Of a stretch of 64,000 nt of DNA, positions 9,759 to 35,971 are shown piece by piece. The DNA comes from Escherichia coli. GTDB lineage: Bacteria; Pseudomonadota; Gammaproteobacteria; Enterobacterales; Enterobacteriaceae. Position 1 is the stretch's first letter, and every line of letters begins with the position of its first letter. The stretch lies in the NCBI RefSeq assembly GCF_009931435.1, contig NZ_CP043414.1; one strand, 5' to 3'. Under the pieces are notes generated by a model. That model saw nothing but the letters and a program-made list of their open reading frames with translations, was not told where the DNA came from and did no database searches. The position numbers and the translations under genes are program-made.

Positions 9759-10330
9759 TGAAAATAATCGACATAAAGGCGATGAAATACCTGGAAGACG
9801 GGTCTGTTTCCTGTGAAGTGTTGTTTGGAGGGCGGGCTGATTATATTCCTTATCGTGCAGTGGAAAATGATTCTGCTGCATCAGGCCAGCGGGTATGGGG
9901 AACACTGATGAGCGGTGAGTTTGGTGAAATCATCCCCTTCACTGTAACAGCAGAGATGCTGGACAAAGAAAAAGAACTGAAAAAAGAGGAAATCAGGCGC
10001 TGGCGAACAGAACAGGAGGCGCAGCCGTTCACATTCGAATGGAACAGCAGCACATGGAATGGAGGAAAATCCTCACTGGAACGCTTATTCCCGGCAGTGA
10101 TGGCAGCAAAATCTGGTGTGGCACACAATGCCACAGTATGGAGTGATGCAAATAACCAACAAATTAAATTGTCACAACAAAAGCTGGAAGAACTACTTAC
10201 GGCAATGGTGCAGGCTCAGGCTGCACGCAACGATGAGATTTACCTGCGCCAGCGTGAGATGAAAAACACGCTGGCCACACTGAATAACATTGCTGCAATT
10301 AGGGCATTTCAGGTGGGCAAAGCAGAATGA
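9758..10330 (+). CDS. tail fibre assembly chaperone for fibre 2
   Basis: 190 aa starting MKIIDIKAMKY; ATG overlaps fibre 2 stop; coiled-coil-like C-terminus. Confidence 0.5.
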   Translation: MKIIDIKAMKYLEDGSVSCEVLFGGRADYIPYRAVENDSAASGQRVWGTLMSGEFGEIIPFTVTAEMLDKEKELKKEEIRRWRTEQEAQPFTFEWNSSTWNGGKSSLERLFPAVMAAKSGVAHNATVWSDANNQQIKLSQQKLEELLTAMVQAQAARNDEIYLRQREMKNTLATLNNIAAIRAFQVGKAE

Positions 10331-11040
10331 AATGGAAAGAGGTAATTTTACGTCCGTCTGCCATAAACATTAAATGTTCTGTGGTTTGTCTTCATCCGTG
10401 GTCAGAAAATACCGGAAACATCAAACCATCGGGGCGTTATCTCAGCCCCGAAAATGCTGTATCTGCACTTTTACCCTACCTGAAAGAAAGCACAGAAAAA
10501 GACATTGTGGCGCTGTTGTTTTGCGCTCCTTCTGCTGGCGAGTTTTTATCACTCGCCAGGCAATTTTCAGGCGCATTTCCATTGCCAGAGGTGGGGCGAA
10601 TGTCCCGCATGATTTCCAGTCAACTTTCACTGGCCATCAGCAGAATGCAAATCCCCGCCAGACCGGCAACATCACTTCCGGAACCGATAATGCTGTCGAC
10701 ACAGACCACTCGCAGCATGTCGCTGGCAGCAACCATTGCACAGGCAGCCACTCCTGCCGCCACATCACCGGAAACATTGTCATCATCGCTGCATCAGTTC
10801 ATGAATGCGAGAGATAAAGCCTTACAGGAAATCGCTGATCAGCAGGCCGCACTCCGGCAAAAAGTTTGCCCGGTGTGGCGCTTTTGCTACAAGGGAGCCC
10901 TTAGCCAGGCTGCAGTGCTGATACAAAAAAACATCCCACACCCCGAGTGGGTTTTTACAGCTGTGATGCTGTTCGTCGGCGATAATCTCTCATCACTAAG
11001 GGAAGCACTACATGACCCAGATGATTGTCCTTGCGCTTGA
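10327..11040 (+). CDS. hypothetical protein (Ser/Thr/Ala-rich)
   Basis: 237-aa ORF, ATGA-coupled to the upstream gene; no family recognised. Confidence 0.4.
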   Translation: MKWKEVILRPSAINIKCSVVCLHPWSENTGNIKPSGRYLSPENAVSALLPYLKESTEKDIVALLFCAPSAGEFLSLARQFSGAFPLPEVGRMSRMISSQLSLAISRMQIPARPATSLPEPIMLSTQTTRSMSLAATIAQAATPAATSPETLSSSLHQFMNARDKALQEIADQQAALRQKVCPVWRFCYKGALSQAAVLIQKNIPHPEWVFTAVMLFVGDNLSSLREALHDPDDCPCA

Positions 11041-11587
11041 CGGGGAAGCCATTCTGCTGCGTAACATCACCGTCAGCGCCACCATGCAACTACCGGACAA
11101 AGATATGTCCGGACAGTCAACCAGCACCACGAGCGCCCAGCAGGGAAACAAGGCTAAAGAGCTGCGCGTGTCGGGGGTTATTGATTTTAACGATGAAGCT
11201 ATTCTGACCCGTATTTTTCAGCTTGCGGAGGCAACAGAAAGCAACGGTGCTAAAAAAACATATCGCATTGCTAACGCTACCGCGAAGGCAATCAATATGC
11301 GACAGGGGGTGTTTTCTGGTGGCATTGATGCCACGGAACAACAGGGAAAAATGCACTGGCAGATCACCTTTACTCTCAGGGAAAAATTAAGCGTGCCAGA
11401 GAAAGCATCCGCACGCAGCGGTTCGCAGAAAACCATCGCCAGACAGCAGACCCAGAATGGCAGCGAACAGGTACCAGACAAAGGCATGAATACGCAAAGT
11501 TCGTTCTGGAAAAAAATCAATGATGCCGTTGGCTCTGGTCTGGATGCTGTTGGCATCGGGAGCGTGAAAGAGGAAGGGAAAACATGA
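11012..11587 (+). CDS. tail protein, possibly gpU-like
   Basis: 191 aa; segment LRVSGVIDFND...MHWQITFTLRE loosely resembles the P2 gpU family as I recall it; immediately 5' of a hub-like gene, matching P2 U-D order. Confidence 0.35.
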   Translation: MTQMIVLALDGEAILLRNITVSATMQLPDKDMSGQSTSTTSAQQGNKAKELRVSGVIDFNDEAILTRIFQLAEATESNGAKKTYRIANATAKAINMRQGVFSGGIDATEQQGKMHWQITFTLREKLSVPEKASARSGSQKTIARQQTQNGSEQVPDKGMNTQSSFWKKINDAVGSGLDAVGIGSVKEEGKT

Positions 11588-13281
11588 AATTGATACAACG
11601 CTGCATGATTAATGGCGAACGGGTGGAAATTGCCGATATAAGCCTTGTTCTTACCCTGAATGCTGCCGGTCGTGGCTTCATTTCTGTTAACAATCTGTCA
11701 CCCGAACACAGCCTTGCCGGCGCAATGGTACAAATTGATCTCGGCCGTGACGGTGAAGCATGGCGCTATTTCTCCGGCTACATTGAGCGCGATCAACCTG
11801 CTGAAAATGGCTCACGTCGCCTTTTTATTCGTGAAGCGGCTGCTGTGCTGGATTTTGATTTCCCTTGCTCCATGCAACACCCGACGTTGCGGGGGGTACT
11901 CGATAATCTGGGGCGACAAAGCGGTATCGTTTTTATCACTCCGGATGCGGATTATGCCAGTATACCAACTCCCTACATCACCCACAGCGGCAGCGGAGCA
12001 CAACTGCTCAGCCAACTGGGGCGAGCATTCAGTATCAGCGATTACGTCTGGCACCCTATGCCGGACGGTTCTGTATTTGTGGGAAGCGCAGCTGATTCAC
12101 GATTTGCCAGTATTACAATGCCGGATATTCCGCAACAGTACACACTCGGGCAAAGCGGCGGAAACAGCATCGACATCATGTTTATGGAAACTGTGCGACC
12201 GGGCGTGAACCTACCGGCCGGGCGCATTACCCGTGTAGCCCTCAACAACGAGAAAATGACCCTGACATGGGAGCGCCTTACCGCCACGGGTACCCCTGTT
12301 TCCAAATCACCATTACGCAGACAAATGGAAACACAGTTCCCAGAACTGGCCAGCGGTACGCTACATACCCGGCTGGCGCGCGTCATTGCGCCAACGGAGC
12401 CCACCACCCTGGGCGACGTGGCCGACAGTTTCCGCCCACGCTACGCCGTCGATGTGCAGTTGCTTGATGAGAACGGCAACGATAAAAGCGACACGCCCGT
12501 TTACCCGGCAGTACCGCTCCCCGTCCCCATGGCTGGCAGTGAGGCGGGATGTTTTGCCTACCCACCGGCAGGCACCATCGTGGAAATATCCAACATTGAA
12601 GGACGTCCGGACAAACCCGTTATCAGGCAAATCTTACCCGCTGGCCATAACCTGCCTGATGTAAAGCCCGGCGAACAGCTGCAGCAACAGCGCGCAGAAG
12701 TGTTTCAGCGCGTCACGACTGACGGAAGCTGGCACAGAGAAACCGATCAGCAAATCAGGGAGCATTCAGCCAGACGAACCATTAACAGCGATCAGGAAGA
12801 ACGCACAACAACAACCAGAACAACAACAGTACAGGCAAACGACATAACCAGCGTTCTGGGAACCAGCAAGCTGATGACAGGCCAGACAGAACACATTACT
12901 ACTGGTCATTATGCGATCGCAGCCGGTGAGCATATCCAGATGGTAGCGCAGGATTTGCTGACTAAACTCAAAGGGGCGACATCCACGATTGAGCGCGACC
13001 TTACTGAAAACGTGGGAGGCCGCAGAACATGCCGGGCGGACGGTGGTCTGGAGTTTACAGCCCCGACAGTATTTATTGGTCGCGGTGGCTCACGGGAAAA
13101 ATCCGGACTTAATCTGCTGACGTTGTTGATTGATATTCTGGATCTGGTTCAGTTGCTGGCCACACACACTGCAAACCACACCCACAGCAACACCGGCGCA
13201 CCAACAAACAACAGCGAACTTGCCGCAGACGCCAAACAGGCTACGAGCCTGCGCGAAAAATACGGTGACCTTATCGCCTGA
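11584..13281 (+). CDS. baseplate hub protein, gpD/gp27/VgrG-like
   Basis: 565 aa; N-terminal pattern ...ISLVLTLNAAGRGF...AMVQIDLGRDGEAWRYFSGYIER is typical of Phage_GPD/VgrG N-domains; Thr-rich stretch EERTTTTRTTTVQ; last gene of the tail operon. Confidence 0.5.
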   Translation: MKLIQRCMINGERVEIADISLVLTLNAAGRGFISVNNLSPEHSLAGAMVQIDLGRDGEAWRYFSGYIERDQPAENGSRRLFIREAAAVLDFDFPCSMQHPTLRGVLDNLGRQSGIVFITPDADYASIPTPYITHSGSGAQLLSQLGRAFSISDYVWHPMPDGSVFVGSAADSRFASITMPDIPQQYTLGQSGGNSIDIMFMETVRPGVNLPAGRITRVALNNEKMTLTWERLTATGTPVSKSPLRRQMETQFPELASGTLHTRLARVIAPTEPTTLGDVADSFRPRYAVDVQLLDENGNDKSDTPVYPAVPLPVPMAGSEAGCFAYPPAGTIVEISNIEGRPDKPVIRQILPAGHNLPDVKPGEQLQQQRAEVFQRVTTDGSWHRETDQQIREHSARRTINSDQEERTTTTRTTTVQANDITSVLGTSKLMTGQTEHITTGHYAIAAGEHIQMVAQDLLTKLKGATSTIERDLTENVGGRRTCRADGGLEFTAPTVFIGRGGSREKSGLNLLTLLIDILDLVQLLATHTANHTHSNTGAPTNNSELAADAKQATSLREKYGDLIA

Positions 13282-13880
13282 TCACCGGGCATACCCCCCC
13301 ATAAACGCCCATCACGCAACGCACGGCTCCGGTCGTGCGTTTTCATATCTGCCACCTGATTAATGCGTTCTGCGTGCCATTCTGGCGCTGTATGCGCACA
13401 CCGCGTAAACGGTGTGACGTAAAGCGTGAGGTGACGTAAACCGCGCTACCCCCTCCAACCCGCGGGTTTCGTGTCGAAACAGTTTTTCAGTTTTCTGCCG
13501 TGCAAAAATGACCGCCAGCCCGCGCAGCAACTGAGGGAAAAGCGAAGATCTGAAATTTCACGCTTTGAAATTTTTTGCAGTTTTCAAAGTGGTTTTTACG
13601 ATCGCACAAATGGCCGGAGCAATAAAACCGCATGATATTAAAAGAGTTTTCATACTTTACGCGAGACAAAAAAACGATCACGAAAGGATCGCATCAAACA
13701 GCCATCAAACAAAGAAGGCAGACACGGCGCGGCCTGCACAAAATTAAGCTCCAAAATAAAACTGAAAAAAAGGATCGCAACAAGAAGAAAAGCGCGTAAA
13801 ACGATCGCTGCTGATGTGGCGTTTCTTTATACAAGCTGCTATTTGCGATATGCTGAACACATCAACCTGTGGAGTGCATT

Positions 13881-14507
13881 ATGAAACGAAAATCAAAGTC
13901 TGCTGCCATTGCTGCTATTACTACAGCTCTGACAGCATCACTGGCTCCGGTGCCAGCTAAAAGCACGATACTACCAACAACAGTTATTGAATCCGCGACA
14001 CACGCCAGAGTGGTTTCAATGCTTACATTTGAGCATCATGATGGTCAGGTGTTTCTGCCTCTCGAAGAAGCTATTGAATATATCAACGGGCTGAATGACA
14101 ACATGCGCGCCGCGCTCAATGCAGTCATTGAAGAACGACAGAACAGAGGCAAGGGAGCACTGTTTACTGACAAAACCGCAAAAATCATAAAAATATGCGA
14201 AGAGTCAATTAAGCAGCACACCCGTGTTAAAGAGGCTGTCAAAATTGTAATGGATCCGGATAACCTGGCAAAAATGTATCCGGATAGCCTGGAGCAAAGA
14301 ATCGCCTATCGCAATAAACTGGTTCGTTTTGGTCGGGCAATTGCGCAGGGAGAGTTTATCGCTCGTGATGCCATCAACACCATCAAACGAAGCACCGCAC
14401 CAGACAAAACAACCAGCCTGGGCAATACGCTGTCTGACGGAAATGTGAAAGCAATGATTATTGCCGAGCATAAAAACATGGGACTCCCGGCACCGGAGTT
14501 TTCCTGA
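13881..14507 (+). CDS. hypothetical secreted protein (signal peptide)
   Basis: MKRKSKSAAIAAITTALTASLA-PVP has an n-region, h-region and A-x-A site; about 208 aa; stop overlaps the next ATG (TGATG). Confidence 0.5.
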   Translation: MKRKSKSAAIAAITTALTASLAPVPAKSTILPTTVIESATHARVVSMLTFEHHDGQVFLPLEEAIEYINGLNDNMRAALNAVIEERQNRGKGALFTDKTAKIIKICEESIKQHTRVKEAVKIVMDPDNLAKMYPDSLEQRIAYRNKLVRFGRAIAQGEFIARDAINTIKRSTAPDKTTSLGNTLSDGNVKAMIIAEHKNMGLPAPEFS

Positions 14508-14887
14508 TGGCAAGCAAAGTAAGCATTCATAAAGATGTTGAATACCAGGACATTGCAAAAGTTTACGGAAAGGCTCTGGAAAACTGGTTAAATACCGGTG
14601 TTCTCCCTGACAGATTCGGCAATGAAGGGCAGTGGGAAGATAACGCAAGATTATGTGGTTCGTTTGTATATAAATTACACATAAGACTACCGTCAGAACC
14701 ACCATGGAAGAAAAGCAAAGCCCAAATAGACAGAACTTCAAATATCTATCTGGTTTATACAAGGCACTGGATGGATTATGACAATATACAAATCATCAGC
14801 ATCATGGCCCCAGATGCTCACGAAAAAGCCAAAACTTCTTTCATGGCTGAACTGGAAAGACGGGCTGAAGAATTCCAGAACTCATAA
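14507..14887 (+). CDS. YafO-like toxin family protein
   Basis: 126 aa; GVLPDRFG, KLHIRL, IYLVYTRHW and a C-terminal AE..RRAEEF line up with E. coli YafO as recalled from memory (GVLPDTFG, HIHL, HLVY...). Confidence 0.5.
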   Translation: MASKVSIHKDVEYQDIAKVYGKALENWLNTGVLPDRFGNEGQWEDNARLCGSFVYKLHIRLPSEPPWKKSKAQIDRTSNIYLVYTRHWMDYDNIQIISIMAPDAHEKAKTSFMAELERRAEEFQNS

Positions 14888-14906
14888 ATTGCCTGATTTT
14901 CTCTCA

Positions 14907-14940
14907 GAAACCCGCAGCGTAAAAACTGTGGGTTTTCTTT
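14907..14940 (+). terminator. rho-independent terminator after the YafO-like gene
   Basis: gaaacccgcag...ctgtgggttt hairpin followed by TTTTTC. Confidence 0.5.
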
Positions 14941-15178
14941 TTGCTACCCTGATACGTGAGGGTAGCACTCAAAGTGAGGCAATATGTAGGCAACCTATTT
15001 AATACGTAAAAATTAATGCATTAAATGGATATTTACTAGCATGGGTACTGGCTTAAAATATCACAACCCTGTTTTATAACGTACTGAATTTATTAGGTGT
15101 GACGGTTTTCCAATGGGGCTTCCGACATTACGTTCAGCTGATGCTTTTCTTATGTAACGAGAAGACATATATTGGTAA

Positions 15179-15234
15179 GCGATGAAGCGATGAAGCGATG
15201 AAGCGATGAAGCGATGAAGCGATGAAGCGATGTA
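15179..15234. repeat. 8-bp tandem repeat (GCGATGAA) x6 plus one variant copy (GCGATGTA)
   Basis: Read directly: six perfect head-to-tail units then one variant, about 95 bp upstream of the ATPase gene start. Confidence 0.95.
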
Positions 15235-15251
15235 ACGTCTGTTTGGTTATA

Positions 15252-15296
15252 AACTTCACACTAATAATTTCTAAATGAAATTATTAGTGTGAAGTT
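15252..15296. promoter_or_regulatory. perfect 20-bp-arm inverted repeat (candidate operator or RNA hairpin) upstream of the ATPase gene
   Basis: aacttcacactaataatttc (15252-15271) / gaaattattagtgtgaagtt (15277-15296), 5-nt loop; 33 bp before the ATG at 15330. Confidence 0.6.
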
Positions 15297-15329
15297 GATG
15301 TTTATTGTGATTATAACTAAGGAATTAAA

Positions 15330-16799
15330 ATGAAATTATCTCCAGCAGAATTGAAGTTAGAAAGGGGTAAGGTTCAAGATAATAAATTCAATCAATATGT
15401 TAAACGTATCACATTAAAAAATGTCAGAGGGTTTGATGAGGAAATTGTGGAGTTTAAAACACCAGTTACAGCTCTTATCGGGACTAATGGTGGAGGGAAG
15501 TCGACTATATTAGGTGCTGTAGCTCTCGCTTATAAAAATGTTAAGCCAAGCAAGTTTTTCCCTAAATCATTTTATGGGGATGATTCAATGAGTGATTGGG
15601 AAATTGGATTCGAATTGATTGACAAGCCTATTTCAAAAGATAAAAATATTAACAGGACTGCAAAATTTAAACAGATGAAATGGCGCAGAGATAATTTCCC
15701 AGAGCGAAATGTTGTATATGTAGAAATACAAAGAACTGTTCCTGCAGGCGAACTAACTAAGTTTAATAAATTTTTATCTGGCGATGCTAAACAATTTGAA
15801 GAAAAAAATCTCAACCCTGAGACAATAAAATATTGCTCTGCCGTTTTAGATAAAAAGATAGAAGATTACAGATGTATAATAAATAAGCACGATCCATCTT
15901 CAAGAATGTTTGTAGGTAAGGCAATTAATGGTTCTGGTTATTCTCAGTTCCATTTTGGTGCAGGTGAAGCATCAATAATAGATACTATTGATAGAATAGA
16001 GACTGCTGCTGATAATTCTCTTGTTTTAATTGAAGAAATTGAAAATGGACTGCATCCTGTTGCAGTGCGGTTGTTTGTTAACTATTTGACAAATGTAGCA
16101 AAGAGGAAAAAGCTGCAAATAATATTTACAACACATTCGCAGGATGCAGTAAACGAGCTAGAGCCAGAAGCTGTTTGGGCTTCTATTAACAAAAAAGTAT
16201 GGAATGGTAAACTAAGTATTGAAAGTTTACGCGCTATAACGGGACAGAAGATAAATTCGAAAGTTATATATGTTGAAGATTCTTTTGCAAAAGAGTGGGT
16301 TGAAAATGCGATGGATCGATATATTCCAGAACTAGCCTCAACAATAAAAGTCTACACGGCAGGTGGTTACCCCAGCGTGGTTAAAGTAAGTCAATATCAT
16401 AATGAGAACCCTACTATAAATTATCCATCAATCGCATTAGTTGATGGGGATATTAAAGGTAGACCCGGAACTAAAGATCTGCCTGATAATGCAATGTTCA
16501 TCGGGGATGATTATCCTGACGCTACGGTTTTTCATTATATTGCAAATAACATAGAAGAAAATGCCTCAGTTTTGAGGCAAAGATGTTTGTTAACAAGATT
16601 TGACGCTGAAAAGATTAAATCGGAAGTTGAGAGTGTGATGCATTCTGCATGTGATCACCATGTTTATTTTACTAGATTAAGTGATAAATTAGATTTTGCC
16701 TCAGAACTATTCATTCGAGCTGGTATGATAGATTTATTTAATGAGAAAAATCCAGAATTTTGGTCCCCAATTATGGACTTCATTAAAAAAGGTCTATAG
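15330..16799 (+). CDS. ABC-type ATPase fused to a Toprim/DUF4435-like domain (OLD-family or fused-PARIS-like candidate defence nuclease)
   Basis: 489 aa; Walker A GTNGGGKST (K57), signature-like SGYSQFHFGAGEAS, Walker B LVLIEE (E235/E236), H-loop FTTHS; C-terminal VIYVED (E316) and ALVDGD (D372/D374) fit Toprim Glu and DxD; strongly AT-rich; own RBS and terminator. Confidence 0.6.
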   Translation: MKLSPAELKLERGKVQDNKFNQYVKRITLKNVRGFDEEIVEFKTPVTALIGTNGGGKSTILGAVALAYKNVKPSKFFPKSFYGDDSMSDWEIGFELIDKPISKDKNINRTAKFKQMKWRRDNFPERNVVYVEIQRTVPAGELTKFNKFLSGDAKQFEEKNLNPETIKYCSAVLDKKIEDYRCIINKHDPSSRMFVGKAINGSGYSQFHFGAGEASIIDTIDRIETAADNSLVLIEEIENGLHPVAVRLFVNYLTNVAKRKKLQIIFTTHSQDAVNELEPEAVWASINKKVWNGKLSIESLRAITGQKINSKVIYVEDSFAKEWVENAMDRYIPELASTIKVYTAGGYPSVVKVSQYHNENPTINYPSIALVDGDIKGRPGTKDLPDNAMFIGDDYPDATVFHYIANNIEENASVLRQRCLLTRFDAEKIKSEVESVMHSACDHHVYFTRLSDKLDFASELFIRAGMIDLFNEKNPEFWSPIMDFIKKGL

Positions 16800-16865
16800 T
16801 AATAATGCAAAAATATAATATTTAGTTTGCGATTTATATTTTTCATAATGAATTGTTGAGAAAAT

Positions 16866-16900
16866 AAGAGAGCATCGAAAATTGAGGCTCTCTTATTTTT
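16866..16900 (+). terminator. rho-independent terminator of the ATPase gene
   Basis: aagagagc (16866-16873) / gctctctt (16887-16894) stem followed by ATTTTT. Confidence 0.6.
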
Positions 16901-17082
16901 ATGAGATATCTCTAATGTATTAATCGTTTTATTTTGGTGCTACCACCACTGATGCTAACTTGTCGATCAGACATTCGCACTATTCAATATCTTTTAGGCT
17001 CCGCAATGAAAACGCCCCCGAAGGAACAATCCCCCGTCAATCGGTTGCCAAAGGCCATTTAGGTAAATCGCCTTCGAGGTCG

Positions 17083-17346
17083 TTCGATGGCTGCATGACG
17101 TTCCCGGTTATCCCGTCAAAGAAAATGCACTCGACCGGAAAACCAGAAGAACTAATGGCGGAGTTGGTCAGGACTGCGAATAGTGGCGGAACAGTCCTTG
17201 ATCCTTTTATGGGGCCAGGGACAACGGGTGTGGCTGCACTGAAAGCAGGGCGAAAATTTATTGGTATAGAGACCAGTGATCATTATTTTGAAGTAGCAGC
17301 ACAGCGACTTCGGGGGACTATTACCACAACCATTTCGACTACATAA
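17083..17346 (+). pseudogene. C-terminal fragment of a beta-class N6A/N4C DNA methyltransferase
   Basis: ...HSTGKPEELMAELVRTANSGGTVLDPFMGPGTTGVAALKAGRKFIGIETSDHYFEVAAQRL matches the AdoMet-binding FxGxG end of N6_N4 MTases; no DPPY-containing N-terminal part upstream. Confidence 0.6.
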
Positions 17347-17446
17347 GACAAAGCCCGCATTTTTGCGGGCTTGTATATCATTAGTGATGTGGACAGTTTG
17401 TGGATGTTTACAAGAAATAAGCTAATAGAAACAATTTGTTATCTTT

Positions 17447-17474
17447 ACAAAAAACGCGCCCGAAGGCGCGTTGG
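17447..17474 (-). terminator. raiA terminator
   Basis: aaaaaacgcgcc-cgaa-ggcgcgtt hairpin 3' of raiA (minus strand), T-run on the transcribed strand. Confidence 0.6.
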
Positions 17475-17495
17475 CGATACACTCAATATAAAGGA

Positions 17496-17891
<396 letters not shown>

Positions 17892-18028
17892 TCAAAATGT
17901 GTGATGGAAATCTCATAATTTTGTCACTTTTTGTCAACGAATCTTTTTTGTGAGAAATCGCAGGAAGAGGTGTTTTTTTACTTGAGGAATATCTCAAAGC
18001 GAGCCATATTTGATGAGATCGATAGTGA

Positions 18029-18808
18029 CTAAATCGCTTCAGTTTCACAACTAACAGAATAAAAAAACGGCAGCTCAAGGCTGTAATGCCAGTCAGTTAA
18101 GCAACTGACTGGCTCTTTTTCGGGGCTGTGGGGTATTTCCAGGGCCTCTCCTTTACCACTCTCGGGAAGGCCCTTTCCCTTCTTGTCGGTAATTTCACTG
18201 GCTGTCCCATACTTGCAAGATCGCGCATCAGCTCCGGTATACGTCCCGGTGAAGCGCATGGCGTCCGTCATCGACGTCAGCAGATGGCTGGTCAGTTCCA
18301 TCTGGCAGACCATTTTGACCTGCGGGTAGAGCGCCGGGTTCCCGGCATGTGTCTGGCGGGGGAAGGCTGCATCGTTCTCTGGTGTATCCGGTGTGCGCCA
18401 GAACACACCATCGATGGCCAGCAGGGTCAGGCTGCACCAGTGCGGATGCAGCGTGGCGTTATGCCAGAGCTGCGCTGTTTTCGTGAACACGCGGCGGACA
18501 GCCTCACTTCCCAGGCGCTGGCGGGCCTGAATAACGGCACTGGGGGCAACGAAGGGGCGATTGCCCGGCAGCATGATGTCCAGGCGATTCACAATCTGGT
18601 GAAGAGGTTCTTTACGCTCAAGCGCCATGCCAACAATACACCAGACCATCATTTCGAGGGGAAGACGGCGCTTGCGTAGCGTTACAGTACCTGATTCGGC
18701 AAGGCAACGAGAGATGAGTTCGGGGTCGAGGTAATCCCCCAGAAAAGTCAGTGGGTTACGCAGAGAATCGTAACGGGATACCAAATCAAGGGCCTGTCCA
18801 ATGAGCAT
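18029..18808 (-). pseudogene. IS4 transposase (InsG-like), internal deletion with frameshifted C-terminus
   Basis: First about 178 aa (MLIGQALDLVSRYDSLRNPLTFLGDYLDPELISRCLAESG...QVKMVCQMELTSHLLT) match IS4 transposase as I recall it; then the frame jumps to out-of-frame 3'-end sequence. Confidence 0.65.
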
Positions 18809-18892
18809 AAAAAAATCCGGAAACGAGTGAGCGTTTCCGGATTCTTACACAGCCACTGAATCGGTCAACTGATCCTTAACTGATCGGCATTA
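18084..18892 (-). mobile_element. IS4, internally deleted copy with terminal inverted repeats and target-site duplication
   Basis: Ends TAATGCCAGTCAGTTAAG (18084-) and CTTAACTGATCGGCATTA (-18892); flanking direct repeat cagctcaagg(g)ctg at 18071-18083 and 18893-18906; about 0.8 kb versus about 1.4 kb for intact IS4 (from memory). Confidence 0.7.
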
Positions 18893-18930
18893 CAGCTCAA
18901 GGGCTGCCGTTTTTTTATTTCAATCTTCTG

Positions 18931-19668
18931 TTATGTATTGCTGCTGTTAGCAGCGATAATCTTCGCTACCTTTTCAGCTTGCGCATTCATCTGCATCTGA
19001 CGGTATGCATTTTCCATCAGCGGCAGCGCATCACGCGTAGCCTGGGTATCCGGATAGTCGCGCAACATGCCTTCTACGCGGTTAACGACAGCAACCCATG
19101 CACCACGTTCTGTATAATACTCGGCAACGGAGTATTCATATTTCGCCAGACGATCTTTCAGGAATACCAGACGTTTGGTGGCATCGGTGGTGTACTGACT
19201 GTTCGGATAGCCGCGCACCAGTTTGGAAAAGTCACTAAACGCAGCTCGTGCATGTTGAGGATCGCGATCGCTACGGTCAACGCCAAAGAACCCTTGCAGC
19301 GCACTGTCATCCAGCGCCATATTGGTCAGGCCACGCATGTACATGACATAATCGATATTCGGATGGGTCGGGTTAAGGCGAATAAAACGATCGATGGCAG
19401 CCTGTGCTAACGGCAAATCGGCGTTTTTATAGTAGGCGTAGATGAGATCCAGCTGCACCTGCTGCGAATACGGACCAAACGGATAGCGATTATCTAACGC
19501 TTCCAGTTGCGTTATTGCCTGTCTCCAGTTACCGTCCTGCAGCTTTTGTTGTGCAGTCGCGTAAATTTCATTTGGCGGATTATCAGGTACTTCTTCCTTT
19601 GACCCCGAGCAACCCGCCAAAAACAGGCTTAGTGTGGCGGCTGCCACCAGATATTTCATGCGCGTCAT
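18931..19668 (-). CDS. bamD: outer membrane protein assembly factor BamD
   Basis: 245 aa lipoprotein, signal + lipobox LAGCSG, TPR-like; recognised as E. coli BamD/YfiO. Confidence 0.95.
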
Positions 19669-33310: not shown

Positions 33311-35971
33311 TCATGATTCCTCGCGCTGGGCAAGATTTAGCGTAAGCCCAACGATCCCCTCTTCGAGCTGGATATCAACGTTAAACCCGAGCTTGCGGGC
33401 CAGCGCCACCATGCCACGATTGTTTGGCATCGTAATACCATTCAGACGTTGCAGTCCGTGATCTCGCGTATAGGTAATCAACTTTTCCATTAAGCGTCGA
33501 CCTAAGCCTAACCCTTTGAGATCCGAGCGAACCAGCACGGCAAATTCGGCATCGATGTTATCAGGGTCGGAGATCGCACGCGTGACGCCGAGGATCTCTT
33601 CCGTTTGATCAATACGTCGTACCGCTACAAATGCCATTTCCCGATCGTAGTCGATCTGCGTCATGTTGGCTAAATCTTCATGGGTAAATTCGTTGATCTC
33701 GCTAAAGTAGCGGTAATAAAGATCTTCTTTGGTGACTCGCGAAATGAACTGCTGAAGTTGTGGCTCATCTTCTGGCAAAATCGGGCGGAACAAGCAGCGT
33801 TCACCGTTTTTCAATTCTACCCATTCTTCCAGCTGATGAGGATAAGGGCGGACTGCCAGGCGACTCTCGTTATCGCCTTCAAACGGAGCGATATCCAGCG
33901 TGACATCAAGCGCGGTAAATTCATTGCCGGAAGCCAGCAAAGGATGAATATCCAGCCTCTGAATCTCCGGACAATCGACAATCAAGTTAGAAACCTGCAC
34001 CAGTAACTGGCTTAATCCCGCCACATCCAGCGGGCGTAGCGCACTACGTGCACGAATCTTTTTACTTTTGATCCCCTGAATGACCAGATAACGTGCCAGG
34101 TTCATGTTCAGCGGCGGTAGTGCGACGACGGCTTGATCTTCAGGACGCCACTCCACACCGCCTTCGCCCAGCATGATCAACGGTCCGAAAACCGGATCGT
34201 GCTCAACCACTACTCGCAACTCCTGAGCGCCAGCACGGTTAGCCATACTTTGTACCAACAGGCCGTGGATACACGCCTGCGGCCAGGCCATTTTTACGCG
34301 ATCGAAAATAGCATTTGCGGCTTGCTGGACTTCATTGGCTGTACGCAAGTAGAGCATGACGCCCTGAACTTCTGATTTATGTGGAATATCCGGCGAGCGT
34401 AATTTTAGTGCCACCGGATAACCAATCTGTTCGGCAATATGCACAGCCTCGGTGCTGTCAGTGGCAATCCAGGTGGGAAGTGTGTTCATGCCGTACGCTT
34501 GCAGGATAGGCTGAACTTCATGGGTATCGAGCGACGTTGCCCCTTCGACAATGGCCTGTTGCAACAGAAGATGCGCTTCTGCGGTATTAGAGGTCAGATT
34601 GCTGGGCAACGCCGGCGTTTCGCGTAGTTGCTTCTGATTACGCCGGTACTCCACCATATGCATAAAAGCGGTGATGGTTCCTTCCGGGGTGCGGTAGGTC
34701 GGCAGCCCGGCTTCGCTGAATAAACGTCGTGCCTCTTGCGAGGAGTGCTCGCCGCACCAGTTCGTCAGCAGAGAAACATACTTGCTGCGGGGATGATGCT
34801 TTACCGCTTCAATTAATGCATGCGCGCTTTCTGTTGCGGGAGCTGCGGCGCTGGGCGAATGAATAACCATCAGCGCATCAAAATCCTGACTGTGGAGCAG
34901 AATATCCAGCGTTTTAATATAATGCTCACTGCTGGCGTCATCGCGAAGATCGAGTGGGTTAGAGATTGCCACATGTTCTGGCAGTGCATCGCGCAATTTC
35001 TGGCAGGTTTCTTCACTGAGCGTAGCCAGCTTGCCATTGCGTGACCATAAGGCATCCAGCGCCAGTGCGGCAGGTGCTGCACCGTTGCTGATAATCATCA
35101 GCCGCTCTCCACGTAGCGGGCGCATATGGCTAAGGGTTTCGACTGCCGAAAACAGCTCGTGGGTATCCTGCACTCGCAACAAACCGGCGCGCTGAATAGC
35201 TGCATCCCAAGCAGGATCCATTCCTGCCGTGGTGTTCAGTAGTCGTTGCGCCGCCGGGCTACGTCCGCTTTTAATCACCAGAATCGGTTTATTACGTGAG
35301 GCGCTACGTGCAGCCGAAACAAAACGTCGCGCATCACTTAATTGTTCGAGGTAGAGCAGGATTGCACTAGTTTTGCTGTCGCGCGCCAGATAATCGAGCA
35401 ATTCATCAACGTCGATATCCAGACTGTCGCCGAGAGCAATAAAGTAGGAAAAGCCCATTTCCCGCTGTTGTGCCCAGTCGAGGATGGTATTGGAGACGGC
35501 GGCAGACTGCGAAATAAACGCCAGTTTGCCGCGTTTAATCGGTACAGGCGAAAAGCTGGCATTCAGGCCTTGCCAGGGGGCCAGTAATCCCAGACTGTTT
35601 GGCCCCAGCAGACGCATGTTATGGCGCAGGGCGCAGGCGCGGAGATCTTCGTGTTGCGATGCCGGGGCGGAAAGAATAATGCAGGTTTTACAGCCTTTCT
35701 CGCCGAGCTCTTCCAGAAGAGTAAGATTGCGGCTGGCATTGGTACATAAAACCGCAAGATCGGGTGTAAAGGGCAGGCTGGCAATATCCGGCCAGGCCAA
35801 CACACCCAACACCGCTTTCCAGGCAGGCGTCACCGGGAGTACCGGCCCGTTAAATCCCCCCGCCAGCAGGTTACGCATCATCAGGTAACCTGCGCGATTG
35901 GGTTTCATCGATGCGCCAATTACCGCAATCGATTTTGGTCGCAGTAGTGCTTCCAGTCCTCGCTGACTCAT
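33311..35971 (-). CDS. patZ: protein lysine acetyltransferase PatZ (Pka/YfiQ)
   Basis: 886 aa MSQRGLEALLRPKSIAVIGAS...; CoA-binding/acyl-CoA synthetase-like N-terminus, GNAT C-terminus. Confidence 0.95.
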   Translation of the reverse strand: MSQRGLEALLRPKSIAVIGASMKPNRAGYLMMRNLLAGGFNGPVLPVTPAWKAVLGVLAWPDIASLPFTPDLAVLCTNASRNLTLLEELGEKGCKTCIILSAPASQHEDLRACALRHNMRLLGPNSLGLLAPWQGLNASFSPVPIKRGKLAFISQSAAVSNTILDWAQQREMGFSYFIALGDSLDIDVDELLDYLARDSKTSAILLYLEQLSDARRFVSAARSASRNKPILVIKSGRSPAAQRLLNTTAGMDPAWDAAIQRAGLLRVQDTHELFSAVETLSHMRPLRGERLMIISNGAAPAALALDALWSRNGKLATLSEETCQKLRDALPEHVAISNPLDLRDDASSEHYIKTLDILLHSQDFDALMVIHSPSAAAPATESAHALIEAVKHHPRSKYVSLLTNWCGEHSSQEARRLFSEAGLPTYRTPEGTITAFMHMVEYRRNQKQLRETPALPSNLTSNTAEAHLLLQQAIVEGATSLDTHEVQPILQAYGMNTLPTWIATDSTEAVHIAEQIGYPVALKLRSPDIPHKSEVQGVMLYLRTANEVQQAANAIFDRVKMAWPQACIHGLLVQSMANRAGAQELRVVVEHDPVFGPLIMLGEGGVEWRPEDQAVVALPPLNMNLARYLVIQGIKSKKIRARSALRPLDVAGLSQLLVQVSNLIVDCPEIQRLDIHPLLASGNEFTALDVTLDIAPFEGDNESRLAVRPYPHQLEEWVELKNGERCLFRPILPEDEPQLQQFISRVTKEDLYYRYFSEINEFTHEDLANMTQIDYDREMAFVAVRRIDQTEEILGVTRAISDPDNIDAEFAVLVRSDLKGLGLGRRLMEKLITYTRDHGLQRLNGITMPNNRGMVALARKLGFNVDIQLEEGIVGLTLNLAQREES

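What the first reader, a model, noticed from the sequence alone, without database searches (positions are those of the whole stretch)
13290..17495. Accessory DNA occupies the position where K-12 has pheL-pheA next to raiA
From raiA onward the window is collinear with K-12, where raiA is followed by pheL-pheA as I recall the map. Here the region adjoining raiA's 3' side instead holds the methyltransferase remnant, the defence gene, the toxin pair and the prophage tail operon. The core/accessory junction therefore lies within about 150 bp of the raiA terminator, and this intergenic site is acting as an integration or cargo hotspot.
Basis: established knowledge. Interest (0 to 1): 0.35.

Follow-up and report, generated by a model that had tools for sequence, protein, structure and literature searches.

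The report
P2-family prophage end at raiA terminator
The DNA next to raiA is the right-hand end of a P2-family prophage that inserted site-specifically into the raiA transcription terminator, pushing pheL-pheA about 37 kb away; this is an ordinary phage integration whose attachment site is already catalogued.

Summary
The window matches K-12 from base 17447 to 64000, except for an 809-bp IS4 remnant. Left of 17447 it carries DNA that K-12 lacks, where K-12 has pheL only 103 bp after raiA. The junction is a 27-bp att core (17447-17473) that is the raiA/RaiZ intrinsic terminator hairpin. In the closest complete genomes the same core, with one mismatch, recurs about 37-41 kb to the left, beside a tyrosine integrase and pheL-pheA. 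So 1-17446 is one Peduoviridae (P2-family) prophage, and 13282-17446 is its cargo region between the last tail gene and attR. That cargo holds a YafO-family toxin with an uncharacterised 208-aa partner, a HEC-04 ATPase-TOPRIM defence gene and the last 98 codons of a DNA methyltransferase. Related prophages carry hok/gef, com and the intact methyltransferase between the same conserved linkers. The site is empty in 5273 of 5425 complete E. coli genomes. About 122-124 carry this integrase/att pair, 16 carry HEC-04 and 6 carry the full arrangement. The exact attL/attR pair is already listed for E. coli P2-like prophages in a 2026 preprint supplement. The finding is ordinary. The only mildly unusual feature is a hypervariable 8-bp repeat upstream of HEC-04.

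The parts
1..13281 (+). Late (tail, baseplate, tail-fibre) operon of the prophage. It ends with an HP1_ORF34-type baseplate protein (11012-11587) and a 565-aa protein with a weak VgrG-like match (11584-13281). The prophage runs off the left edge of the window.
   Evidence: 99.5% collinear with NZ_CP074819.1, where PGAP annotates tape measure, baseplate J, tail fibres and so on. Pfam PF25759 E=2.5e-53. Weak VgrG match.
13282..13776 (.). Conserved non-coding linker between the last tail gene and the first cargo slot.
   Evidence: Shared at 99.5% with the prophage variant that carries hok/com/methyltransferase instead (L004). Homology ends at 13776. No ORF with a family match.
13777..14907 (+). 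Cargo slot 1: a two-gene toxin-antitoxin-like cassette. It has an uncharacterised 208-aa protein (13881-14507; the longest ORF starts at 13869) whose stop overlaps the start of a YafO-family toxin (14507-14887).
   Evidence: PF13957 YafO_toxin E=1.1e-27. The partner has no Pfam, NCBIfam or PDB match. The same gene pair is conserved in unrelated chromosomal contexts in the loci holding P0025 and P0027, which sources name as Vibrio parahaemolyticus and Morganella morganii proteins. L004, L005 and L006 carry hok/gef in this slot.
14908..14969 (+). 62-bp conserved linker containing a terminator-like hairpin (14907-14936). It is the boundary between cargo slots 1 and 2.
   Evidence: 84-91% identical to the segment between hok and com in L004 and L006, and it is the left end of homology with L005. 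Terminator-like site.
14970..17048 (+). Cargo slot 2: a low-GC HEC-04 cassette. It contains the 8-bp tandem repeat GCGATGAA x6 (15179-15226, plus a partial unit to 15232), a 23-bp inverted repeat (15249-15299), the HEC-04 CDS (15330-16799) and a downstream hairpin (16861-16899).
   Evidence: PADLOC PDLC04149 HEC-04 E=6e-204 over residues 2-488. Pfam AAA_15/AAA_21. Walker A K57, TOPRIM-region E316 and D372xD374 are present. Best PDB match is an OLD-family nuclease, 6p74. GC is 32-37%. The cassette is found in 16 of 5426 genomes, always next to raiA.
17049..17346 (+). Methyltransferase remnant: the last 98 codons of a com-regulated N6/N4 DNA methyltransferase. It keeps the FxGxG SAM-binding motif and lacks the N-terminal DPPY catalytic motif.
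   Evidence: Aligns to residues 171-268 of the intact 268-aa enzyme of L004, whose DPPY motif lies near residue 52. Pfam match covers profile positions 160-220 of 221 only. PGAP marks it 'missing N-terminus' in relatives.
17347..17446 (.). Phage right arm of the att site. It holds a bidirectional terminator hairpin (17351-17372) and two TGTGGA repeats 11 bp apart (17388-17393 and 17399-17404), which are candidate integrase arm-type sites.
   Evidence: Terminator scan. This is the only tandem TGTGGA pair with 9-13 bp spacing in the 64-kb window. A matching ATGTGGATG pair lies at the integrase end in L003.
17447..17473 (.). attR core, ACAAAAAACGCGCCCGAAGGCGCGTTG. On the minus strand it is the raiA/RaiZ intrinsic terminator hairpin plus its T-run.
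   Evidence: It is the exact end of K-12 homology and occurs once in the window. A second copy with one mismatch lies next to int-pheL in L003. It folds as an 8-bp stem with a UUCG loop, -14.4 kcal/mol. It covers K-12 2737518-2737544, and raiZ is annotated to 2737542. The identical attL/attR pair is listed in File S6 of bioRxiv 10.64898/2026.02.27.708500.
17496..17837 (-). raiA, the first core gene. It is intact and keeps its own terminator.
   Evidence: 113-aa ORF, annotated raiA in all matching genomes.

Best explanation
Window 1-17446 is the right-hand ~17.4 kb of a temperate P2-family (Peduoviridae) prophage of about 37 kb. Its tyrosine integrase recombined a phage attP with a 27-bp bacterial attB that is the intrinsic terminator of raiA (the 3' end of the RaiZ sRNA), just upstream of the pheL-pheA promoter -35 box. 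Integration duplicates the core. raiA therefore keeps an unchanged terminator at attR (17447-17473). pheL-pheA keeps its promoter behind the other copy (attL), about 37 kb away next to int and outside the window. The flagged interval 13290-17495 is the phage's own accessory region between the last tail gene and attR. It has two slots separated by conserved linkers. Slot 1 holds an addiction-type module: here a YafO-family toxin with a 208-aa partner, hok/gef in relatives. Slot 2 holds a DNA-directed module: here the HEC-04 ABC-ATPase/TOPRIM anti-phage gene, which replaced com and the first two-thirds of a methyltransferase gene; com plus the intact methyltransferase in relatives. Shown: the junction, the core duplication in relatives, the gene identities, the population frequencies and the mosaic boundaries. 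Inferred: that the window's own genome carries the int/attL end, that cassettes are exchanged by homologous recombination at the conserved linkers, and that the cargo serves prophage maintenance and superinfection exclusion.
For: K-12 homology ends exactly at 17447, and a 27-bp repeat (26/27 identical) flanks the element in NZ_CP074819.1, with int next to pheL. That element has P2-type head genes (GPO scaffold, P2-family capsid, gpM, head completion), replication endonuclease, ogr, portal and terminase, plus the same tail operon as the window at 99.5%. A strain with the identical raiA-IS4-bamD backbone (2020CK-00188) has an empty raiA-pheL site. Across genomes, 5273 of 5425 have the empty site, 124 share the attR junction and 122 share the attL/int junction. 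The mismatch sits in the phage-proximal part of attL in two integrase lineages, as expected if strand exchange occurs inside the core. Tandem TGTGGA repeats occur in both arms. There is only one core copy between the tail genes and raiA, so the cargo lies inside the element. Mosaic boundaries fall at 13776, 14908-14969 and 17049 against the hok/com/methyltransferase variants. HEC-04 identity comes, and its published anti-T4/T5 activity, which needs the Walker A and TOPRIM metal-site residues. The exact att pair and element sizes of 35.4-38.2 kb are listed for E. coli P2-like prophages in an independent dataset.
Against: The window stops inside the prophage, so int, attL and pheL-pheA of this particular genome were not seen. 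No genome in the complete-genome collection combines this prophage with the IS4 remnant. No isolated phage in the phage collection is close at the DNA level, so inducibility is unknown. The nearest relative carries an IS66 insertion in its early region. The L006 arrangement (intact methyltransferase, then HEC-04, then methyltransferase remnant) shows that the history of slot 2 is more complex than a single replacement.
Confidence: 0.92

Rival explanations
1. The cargo (13282-17446), or at least the HEC-04 plus methyltransferase-remnant part, is the leftover right end of an older prophage. It stayed next to raiA, and the present prophage integrated beside it, giving a tandem or nested arrangement.
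For: The HEC-04 plus remnant module sits next to raiA behind two different structural backbones: the window type and the sheath/tube/D/ogr type of L005 and L006. L006 has an intact methyltransferase followed by HEC-04 and a second, truncated methyltransferase 3' end, which resembles two stacked right ends.
Against: No second att core with up to 3 mismatches exists between the tail genes and raiA in the window or in L002 and L004-L007. In L006 the intact methyltransferase is followed within 52 bp by the cassette, with no phage arm or core in between. All backbones share the same int/attL, and mosaic phages recombining at conserved linkers explain the pattern. The cassette was never found next to raiA without a prophage.
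Confidence: 0.05
2. The region is ancestral core DNA that K-12 lost by deletion. pheL-pheA would then lie immediately left of the window.
For: None beyond the fact that the left end is outside the window.
Against: 97% of complete E. coli genomes have the K-12 arrangement. The full arrangement occurs in 6 of 5426 genomes. The genes are phage structural genes. Direct repeats and an integrase bound the element in relatives. A strain with the same backbone has the empty site.
Confidence: 0.01
3. The accessory DNA arrived by transposition or another non-phage route (IS, transposon or integrative island), and the neighbouring tail operon is coincidental.
For: An IS4 remnant lies about 600 bp away on the other side of raiA. 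The HEC-04 cassette has a foreign, low GC content.
Against: No transposase, terminal inverted repeats or target duplication bound 13282-17446. The IS4 remnant has its own 10-bp duplication. It is also present in a strain with an empty raiA-pheL site, so the two events are independent. The flanks of the cargo are conserved phage sequence in all variants.
Confidence: 0.02

Closest known systems
P2-like (Peduoviridae) prophages of E. coli delimited by att sites (bioRxiv 10.64898/2026.02.27.708500, File S6)
   Same: The attL/attR pair is identical: ACAAAAAACGCGCCCGAAGGTGCGTTG and ACAAAAAACGCGCCCGAAGGCGCGTTG. Both have a tyrosine integrase and element sizes of 35-38 kb. A near-identical pair is listed for about 95 Salmonella P2-like prophages and a related one for a Klebsiella prophage.
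   Different: The dataset lists sequences only. It does not name raiA or pheL: neither name occurs in the held supplements. HEC-04 does not occur in the main text, and the supplements were not searched for it. The defence hotspots named in the text are gpA-portal, int-att, int-primase, downstream of gpL and within the late genes, not explicitly the interval from the last tail gene to attR.
Phage P2 and its accessory-gene hotspots (old/tin between gpA and gpQ; Rousset et al. 2022, PMC9122126)
   Same: It has the same kind of head, replication and ogr modules. It is a temperate phage carrying exchangeable anti-phage cargo, and the cargo includes an ABC-ATPase/TOPRIM nuclease of the same broad class as P2 Old.
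   Different: The cargo sits at the attR-proximal end rather than at the cos-proximal locus. The tail/baseplate module is HP1-like (PF25759) rather than classical P2. P2's own attB (locI) is a different site (my recollection, not tested).
HEC-04 (Payne et al., bioRxiv 10.1101/2024.01.29.577857) and IbfA of IncI plasmids (PMC12111858)
   Same: It gives a full-length match to the PADLOC HEC-04 model (E=6e-204). [quoted passage not shown]
   Different: HEC-04 was first described embedded in Hma systems. Here it is embedded in a disrupted phage methyltransferase locus with no Hma helicase or ATPase nearby. Activity of this allele was not tested.
YafN-YafO type II toxin-antitoxin system of E. coli K-12
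   Same: The toxin belongs to the YafO family (PF13957). It is the second gene of a translationally coupled pair.
   Different: The upstream partner is a 208-aa protein with no detectable family, not a YafN (Phd/YefM-type) antitoxin. The toxin scores far below the NCBIfam YafO equivalog cut-off (42.7 against 153 bits).
Klebsiella phage 3LV2017 (Peduoviridae, Reginaelenavirus)
   Same: It has the closest integrase among isolated phages (64% identity). Its annotated att core is also a terminator-like hairpin followed by a T-run.
   Different: The core sequence is different (AAACCCGGAGCACTCCGGGTT), so the host site is different. There is no DNA-level similarity to the window's structural genes.

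Membership tests
Integrated P2-family (Peduoviridae) prophage | P2-type head/packaging module (portal Q, terminase P, scaffold O, capsid N, terminase M, head completion L), gpA replication endonuclease and an ogr-type late activator | tested here: inconclusive
   All are annotated in the 99.5%-identical element of NZ_CP074819.1. They lie left of the window, so they were not seen in the window's own genome.
Integrated P2-family (Peduoviridae) prophage | Contractile-tail/baseplate late operon present | tested here: met
   Window 1-13281 is collinear with annotated tape measure, baseplate J, tail fibre and assembly genes. PF25759 HP1_ORF34 baseplate match.
Tyrosine-integrase site-specific integration (attL/attR) | Direct repeat of a core sequence at both ends of the element, identical to a single copy at the empty site | tested here: met
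   The 27-bp core lies at 17447-17473. A second copy (26/27) lies next to int-pheL in L003, and a single copy is present in K-12 and in the empty-site strain L008. The attL end was seen only in relatives.
Tyrosine-integrase site-specific integration (attL/attR) | Tyrosine recombinase gene adjacent to one att site | tested here: inconclusive
   A 329-aa tyrosine-type integrase lies 86 bp from the attL core in L003 and in 122 genomes. It is outside the window.
Tyrosine-integrase site-specific integration (attL/attR) | Excision and integration activity (attP circle formation, restoration of attB) | not testable with these tools
   This needs induction experiments or read-level data. An empty site in a strain with the same backbone fits but does not prove it.
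HEC-04 anti-phage system | Single protein with an N-terminal ABC-type ATPase fused to a C-terminal TOPRIM domain, matching the HEC-04 model end to end | tested here: met
   PADLOC PDLC04149 E=6e-204, residues 2-488 on profile 5-488 of 494. AAA_15/AAA_21. OLD-family nuclease is the best PDB match.
HEC-04 anti-phage system | Walker A lysine and the TOPRIM metal-binding acidic residues shown to be essential (K62, E319, D375, D377 in the reference) | tested here: met
   GTNGGGKS with K57, E316 in YVEDS, and D372-G-D374 are present at the corresponding offsets. The requirement is reported. The correspondence rests on position offset, not on a residue-level alignment to the reference protein.
HEC-04 anti-phage system | Confers phage resistance | not testable with these tools
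   Published for the reference protein only.
YafO-type type II toxin-antitoxin pair | YafO-family toxin domain | tested here: met
   PF13957 E=1.1e-27, 96.5 bits against a cut-off of 25.
YafO-type type II toxin-antitoxin pair | Cognate YafN-like (Phd/YefM-fold) antitoxin encoded immediately upstream | tested here: not met
   The upstream 208-aa protein has no Pfam, NCBIfam or PDB match. Only the conserved adjacency and start/stop overlap support a partner role.
Functional N6/N4 DNA methyltransferase | Both the catalytic DPPY motif and the SAM-binding FxGxG motif in one reading frame | tested here: not met
   Only residues equivalent to 171-268 of the 268-aa enzyme remain. The DPPY motif (near residue 52 in L004) is absent.

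The most novel reading that the evidence does not exclude
The 8-bp tandem repeat (GCGATGAA)n, about 100 bp upstream of the HEC-04 start codon and next to a 23-bp inverted repeat, could act as a slipped-strand switch. It would tune or phase-vary expression of a defence gene that is toxic when overexpressed. A lysogen population would then hold cells with different defence levels. Copy number ranges from 6 to 13 among otherwise 98-99.7% identical prophages, including closely related isolates.
Probability: 0.15. Interest if true: 0.45.

Novelty: already known. Interest (0 to 1): 0.17.

Why it matters
The result mainly matters for annotation. It places the core/accessory boundary to the base and assigns the whole flagged interval to one prophage. 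It also shows that raiA, its RaiZ 3' end and the pheL-pheA promoter are left intact by the insertion. The case illustrates how P2-family phages carry exchangeable maintenance and defence cassettes next to their att site. It also gives a natural series of variants: hok or the YafO pair in one slot, and com plus methyltransferase, HEC-04, or both in the other. These could be used to study cassette turnover. None of this changes current understanding, and the att site is already in a published dataset.

Tried and rejected
1. I looked for a close isolated phage. megablast of the tail operon and of the cargo against 50,697 phage records gave only tail-fibre fragments and no match.

2. I searched the literature by gene names (raiA/yfiA, pheL, prophage/integrase/attB/P2-like). 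This gave nothing relevant. The site surfaced only when the core sequence itself was searched in a preprint supplement.

3. An Rfam scan of 13000-19000 gave only two sub-threshold hits (MicC 31.8 bits against 90; BSnc120 24.4 against 114). I treat these as chance matches to terminator hairpins.

4. I searched for a second att core, which would indicate tandem elements. None was found with up to 3 mismatches.

5. I tried to identify the source genome through the IS4 remnant. The only 100% match (2020CK-00188) has an empty raiA-pheL site. It therefore served as a control rather than as the source.

6. I looked for a family or fold for the 208-aa partner of YafO. Pfam, NCBIfam, PADLOC and a PDB profile search gave nothing credible. 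The 'SufA' name some records give it has no support.

7. The promoter consensus scan of the cargo found no more sites than in shuffled sequence (14 against 12.2 expected). I therefore claim no promoter assignment for HEC-04.

Full report
**Observation**

The window is E. coli DNA in the opposite orientation to the K-12 map. raiA lies at 17496-17837 on the minus strand, followed by bamD, rluD, yfiH and clpB. In K-12 MG1655, raiA is followed by the raiZ sRNA, then pheL 103 bp after the raiA stop, then pheA.

blastn of the window against K-12 2688000-2737999 shows uninterrupted collinearity from 17447 to 64000 at 95-99% identity. This corresponds to K-12 2737544 down to 2692044. The only break is an 809-bp insertion at 18084-18892. 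Homology stops at 17447, 49 bp past the raiA stop codon.

- a methyltransferase C-terminal remnant;
- a 489-aa ATPase gene in a 32-37% GC island;
- a YafO-family toxin with an overlapping upstream ORF;
- a phage tail operon ending at 13281.

**What the junction is**

I compared three sequences: the window, the K-12 empty site, and the far end of the homologous element in the closest complete genome. That genome is NZ_CP074819.1, which is 99.4-99.5% identical over the window region.

The comparison gives a 27-bp core, ACAAAAAACGCGCCCGAAGGCGCGTTG, at 17447-17473. It occurs once in the window and once at the empty site in K-12.

In NZ_CP074819.1 the core occurs twice. One copy is perfect and lies next to raiA. 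The other has one mismatch (GGTG for GGCG) and lies 86 bp from a 329-aa tyrosine integrase, directly upstream of pheL-pheA.

On the raiA strand the core is the raiA intrinsic terminator. It forms an 8-bp GC-rich stem with a UUCG loop and a T-run, at -14.4 kcal/mol. It covers K-12 2737518-2737544, and the annotated RaiZ 3' end is 2737542. The last base of the core is the first T of the TTGACA that follows in the K-12 pheL upstream sequence. I recall this as the pheL-pheA promoter -35 box.

Because the core is duplicated, raiA keeps an unchanged terminator, and pheL keeps its promoter with 27 bp of native upstream sequence. The attL copy carries an A-C mismatch in the stem. It is preceded by a strong 13-bp-stem hairpin downstream of int. 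I infer that the two hairpins together insulate pheL-pheA from int transcription.

The mismatch lies in the phage-proximal part of attL in two different integrase lineages. This is as expected if strand exchange happens further inside the core.

Two TGTGGA repeats 11 bp apart lie in the phage arm at 17388-17404. They are the only such tandem pair in the 64-kb window. A matching ATGTGGATG pair lies at the int end. I read these as arm-type integrase sites, by analogy with P2 (recollection, not tested).

**What the element is**

In NZ_CP074819.1 the interval between the two cores holds the following genes:
- int, a C-like repressor and cox-region genes;
- a gpA-type replication endonuclease and parM;
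- ogr, portal and large terminase;
- GPO scaffold, P2-family capsid, gpM and head completion;
- lysis genes;
- the same tail/baseplate operon as window 1-13281.

It is therefore a P2-family (Peduoviridae) prophage with an HP1-like baseplate module (PF25759). Core-to-core length is about 37.1 kb in NZ_CM129882.1. It is about 41 kb in NZ_CP074819.1, which carries an IS66 insertion. The window holds the right 17.4 kb, so pheL is predicted about 20 kb left of base 1.

No isolated phage is close at the DNA level. The nearest isolated-phage integrase is that of Klebsiella phage 3LV2017, at 64% identity. Its att core is a different terminator-like hairpin.

**Population picture**

The collection holds 5426 complete E. 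coli genomes.
- 5273 have raiA and pheL adjacent as in K-12, and about 152 have the site split.
- 124 share the window's attR junction, and 122 share the attL/int junction.
- At least one other occupied genome carries a P2-type early region with an integrase only 58% identical that uses the same core.
- A strain with a 100% identical raiA-IS4-bamD backbone (2020CK-00188) has the empty site. This is a near-isogenic control.

The site is thus a dedicated attB of P2-family integrases, occupied in about 2.8% of genomes. It is not a general hotspot.

**The flagged interval is phage cargo**

Only one core lies between the tail genes and raiA, so 13282-17446 is inside the element. Comparison with four other prophages at the same site shows a modular layout.
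- A 495-bp non-coding linker (13282-13776) is conserved.
- Slot 1 (13777-14907) holds the 208-aa protein plus YafO toxin here. It holds hok/gef, with or without a TM2-domain gene, elsewhere.
- A 62-bp linker with a terminator hairpin (14908-14969) is conserved at 84-91%.
- Slot 2 (14970-17048) holds the low-GC HEC-04 cassette here. In L004 it holds com plus the first 170 codons of an intact 268-aa methyltransferase.
- From 17049 all variants share the methyltransferase 3' end, a terminator, the phage arm and the core.

The remnant keeps the SAM-binding motif but lacks DPPY, so it cannot be active.

In L006 both an intact com-methyltransferase and the HEC-04 cassette are present. The cassette is bracketed by two roughly 260-bp copies of the methyltransferase 3' end, about 90% identical. 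This arrangement could lose HEC-04 by simple recombination.

The same int/att pair serves two structural backbones: the window type, and a sheath/tube/D/ogr type in L005 and L006. That is typical phage mosaicism. I infer that cassettes are exchanged by homologous recombination at the conserved linkers. This was not shown.

**Gene identities**

The 489-aa protein matches the PADLOC HEC-04 model end to end (E=6e-204). It has ABC-type ATPase domains, Walker A K57, and acidic TOPRIM residues E316 and D372/D374. Its best PDB match is an OLD-family nuclease.

HEC-04 is reported to protect against T4 and T5 and to need the Walker A and TOPRIM metal-site residues. It is toxic when induced, and plasmid IbfA is a homologue. 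At the DNA level this cassette occurs in 16 of 5426 genomes, always at this prophage end. The complete arrangement with the YafO pair occurs in 6.

The toxin is a clear YafO-family member. Its upstream partner has no recognisable family or solved relative. However, the two-gene pair is conserved in unrelated chromosomal contexts in other bacteria, in loci whose proteins sources name as Morganella morganii and Vibrio parahaemolyticus. This supports a functional pair, but membership of the YafN-YafO system in the strict sense is not met.

**Comparison with what is known**

Searches by gene name found nothing. But the exact attL/attR pair derived here is listed for E. coli P2-like prophages of 35.4-38.2 kb in File S6 of bioRxiv 10.64898/2026.02.27.708500. 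Near-identical pairs are listed for about 95 Salmonella entries and a related one for a Klebsiella entry.

That preprint and Rousset et al. 2022 describe defence hotspots in P2-like phages. The main one lies between gpA and the portal. The last-tail-gene-to-attR interval seen here is not one of the named ones.

The integration site and the general phenomenon are therefore already known. The specific cargo combination is just another mosaic.

**Verdict**

The refinements are these:
- the junction is the raiA terminator itself;
- all the listed items belong to a single P2-family prophage;
- pheL-pheA is displaced, not replaced;
- the variability is a phage cargo region rather than a property of the chromosomal site.

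The one feature I could not explain is the hypervariable 8-bp repeat upstream of HEC-04. It has 6 to 13 units among near-identical prophages, and short-read contigs break in it. The finding is of low interest overall.

Noticed in passing
window 15179-15232: A tandem 8-bp repeat, GCGATGAA, has 6 units here and lies about 100 bp upstream of the HEC-04 start codon. Directly counted copy numbers are 6, 6, 8, 8, 10, 13 and 13 in near-identical prophages. Span lengths imply 6 to 13 units across the 16 complete genomes, including 6, 7 and 8 in three related ETEC isolates. Two short-read contigs end inside the repeat. All three forward frames through it contain stops, so it is non-coding.
   Followed up: partly
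window 15249-15299: A 23-bp inverted repeat (96% complementary, 5-nt spacer) lies between the 8-bp repeat tract and the HEC-04 ribosome-binding site. It could be an operator or a 5'-UTR hairpin. A weak promoter-like match overlaps it.
   Followed up: no
window 18081-18892: An internally deleted IS4 copy (about 809 bp, with IS4-type terminal inverted repeats TAATGCC..TCAGTTAAG) is flanked by a 10-bp duplication, CAGCTCAAGG. It is inserted in the loop of the palindromic terminator between bamD and raiA. The 259-aa ORF 18029-18808 is a frameshifted transposase remnant that runs out of the element. IS4-related insertions at this spot occur in 335 of 5425 genomes, some full-length and some further hit by IS200/IS605. 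They are independent of the prophage.
   Followed up: partly
window 13881-14507: The 208-aa protein upstream of the YafO toxin belongs to a small family (39 clusters found; the named members come mostly from Enterobacterales genera). The family has a strongly conserved N-terminal ASLAPVPA segment and no Pfam, NCBIfam or PDB relative. Many records label it 'iron-sulfur cluster assembly scaffold protein SufA', which looks like an annotation error. It is always followed by a 126-aa YafO-family gene in the loci examined.
   Followed up: partly
window 13282-13776: A 495-bp non-coding stretch after the last tail gene is conserved at 99.5% in prophage variants with different cargo. It contains repeated AAAGGATCGCA motifs 86 bp apart and several small hairpins. 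No Rfam match and no convincing ORF were found.
   Followed up: no
L006 (NZ_CP121356.1) 7689-10430: In this relative the HEC-04 cassette is bracketed by two direct copies (about 260 bp, 90% identical) of the methyltransferase 3' end. One belongs to an intact com-methyltransferase and one is the remnant. Recombination between them would delete HEC-04 and regenerate the common com-methyltransferase arrangement.
   Followed up: partly
L009 (NZ_CP149553.1) 3920-5075; L010 (KY271397.1) 31-51 and 35058-35079: A second integrase, only 58% identical, uses the same raiA-terminator core. The closest isolated-phage integrase (Klebsiella phage 3LV2017, 64%) uses a different hairpin-plus-T-run core. This integrase clade may generally target intrinsic terminators.
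   Followed up: partly
window 29720-64000: The core genes here are only about 95-96% identical to K-12, against about 98-99% nearer raiA. This suggests a lineage fairly distant from K-12 or a recombined segment. No complete genome in the collection combines this backbone variant (IS4 remnant) with the prophage.
   Followed up: no
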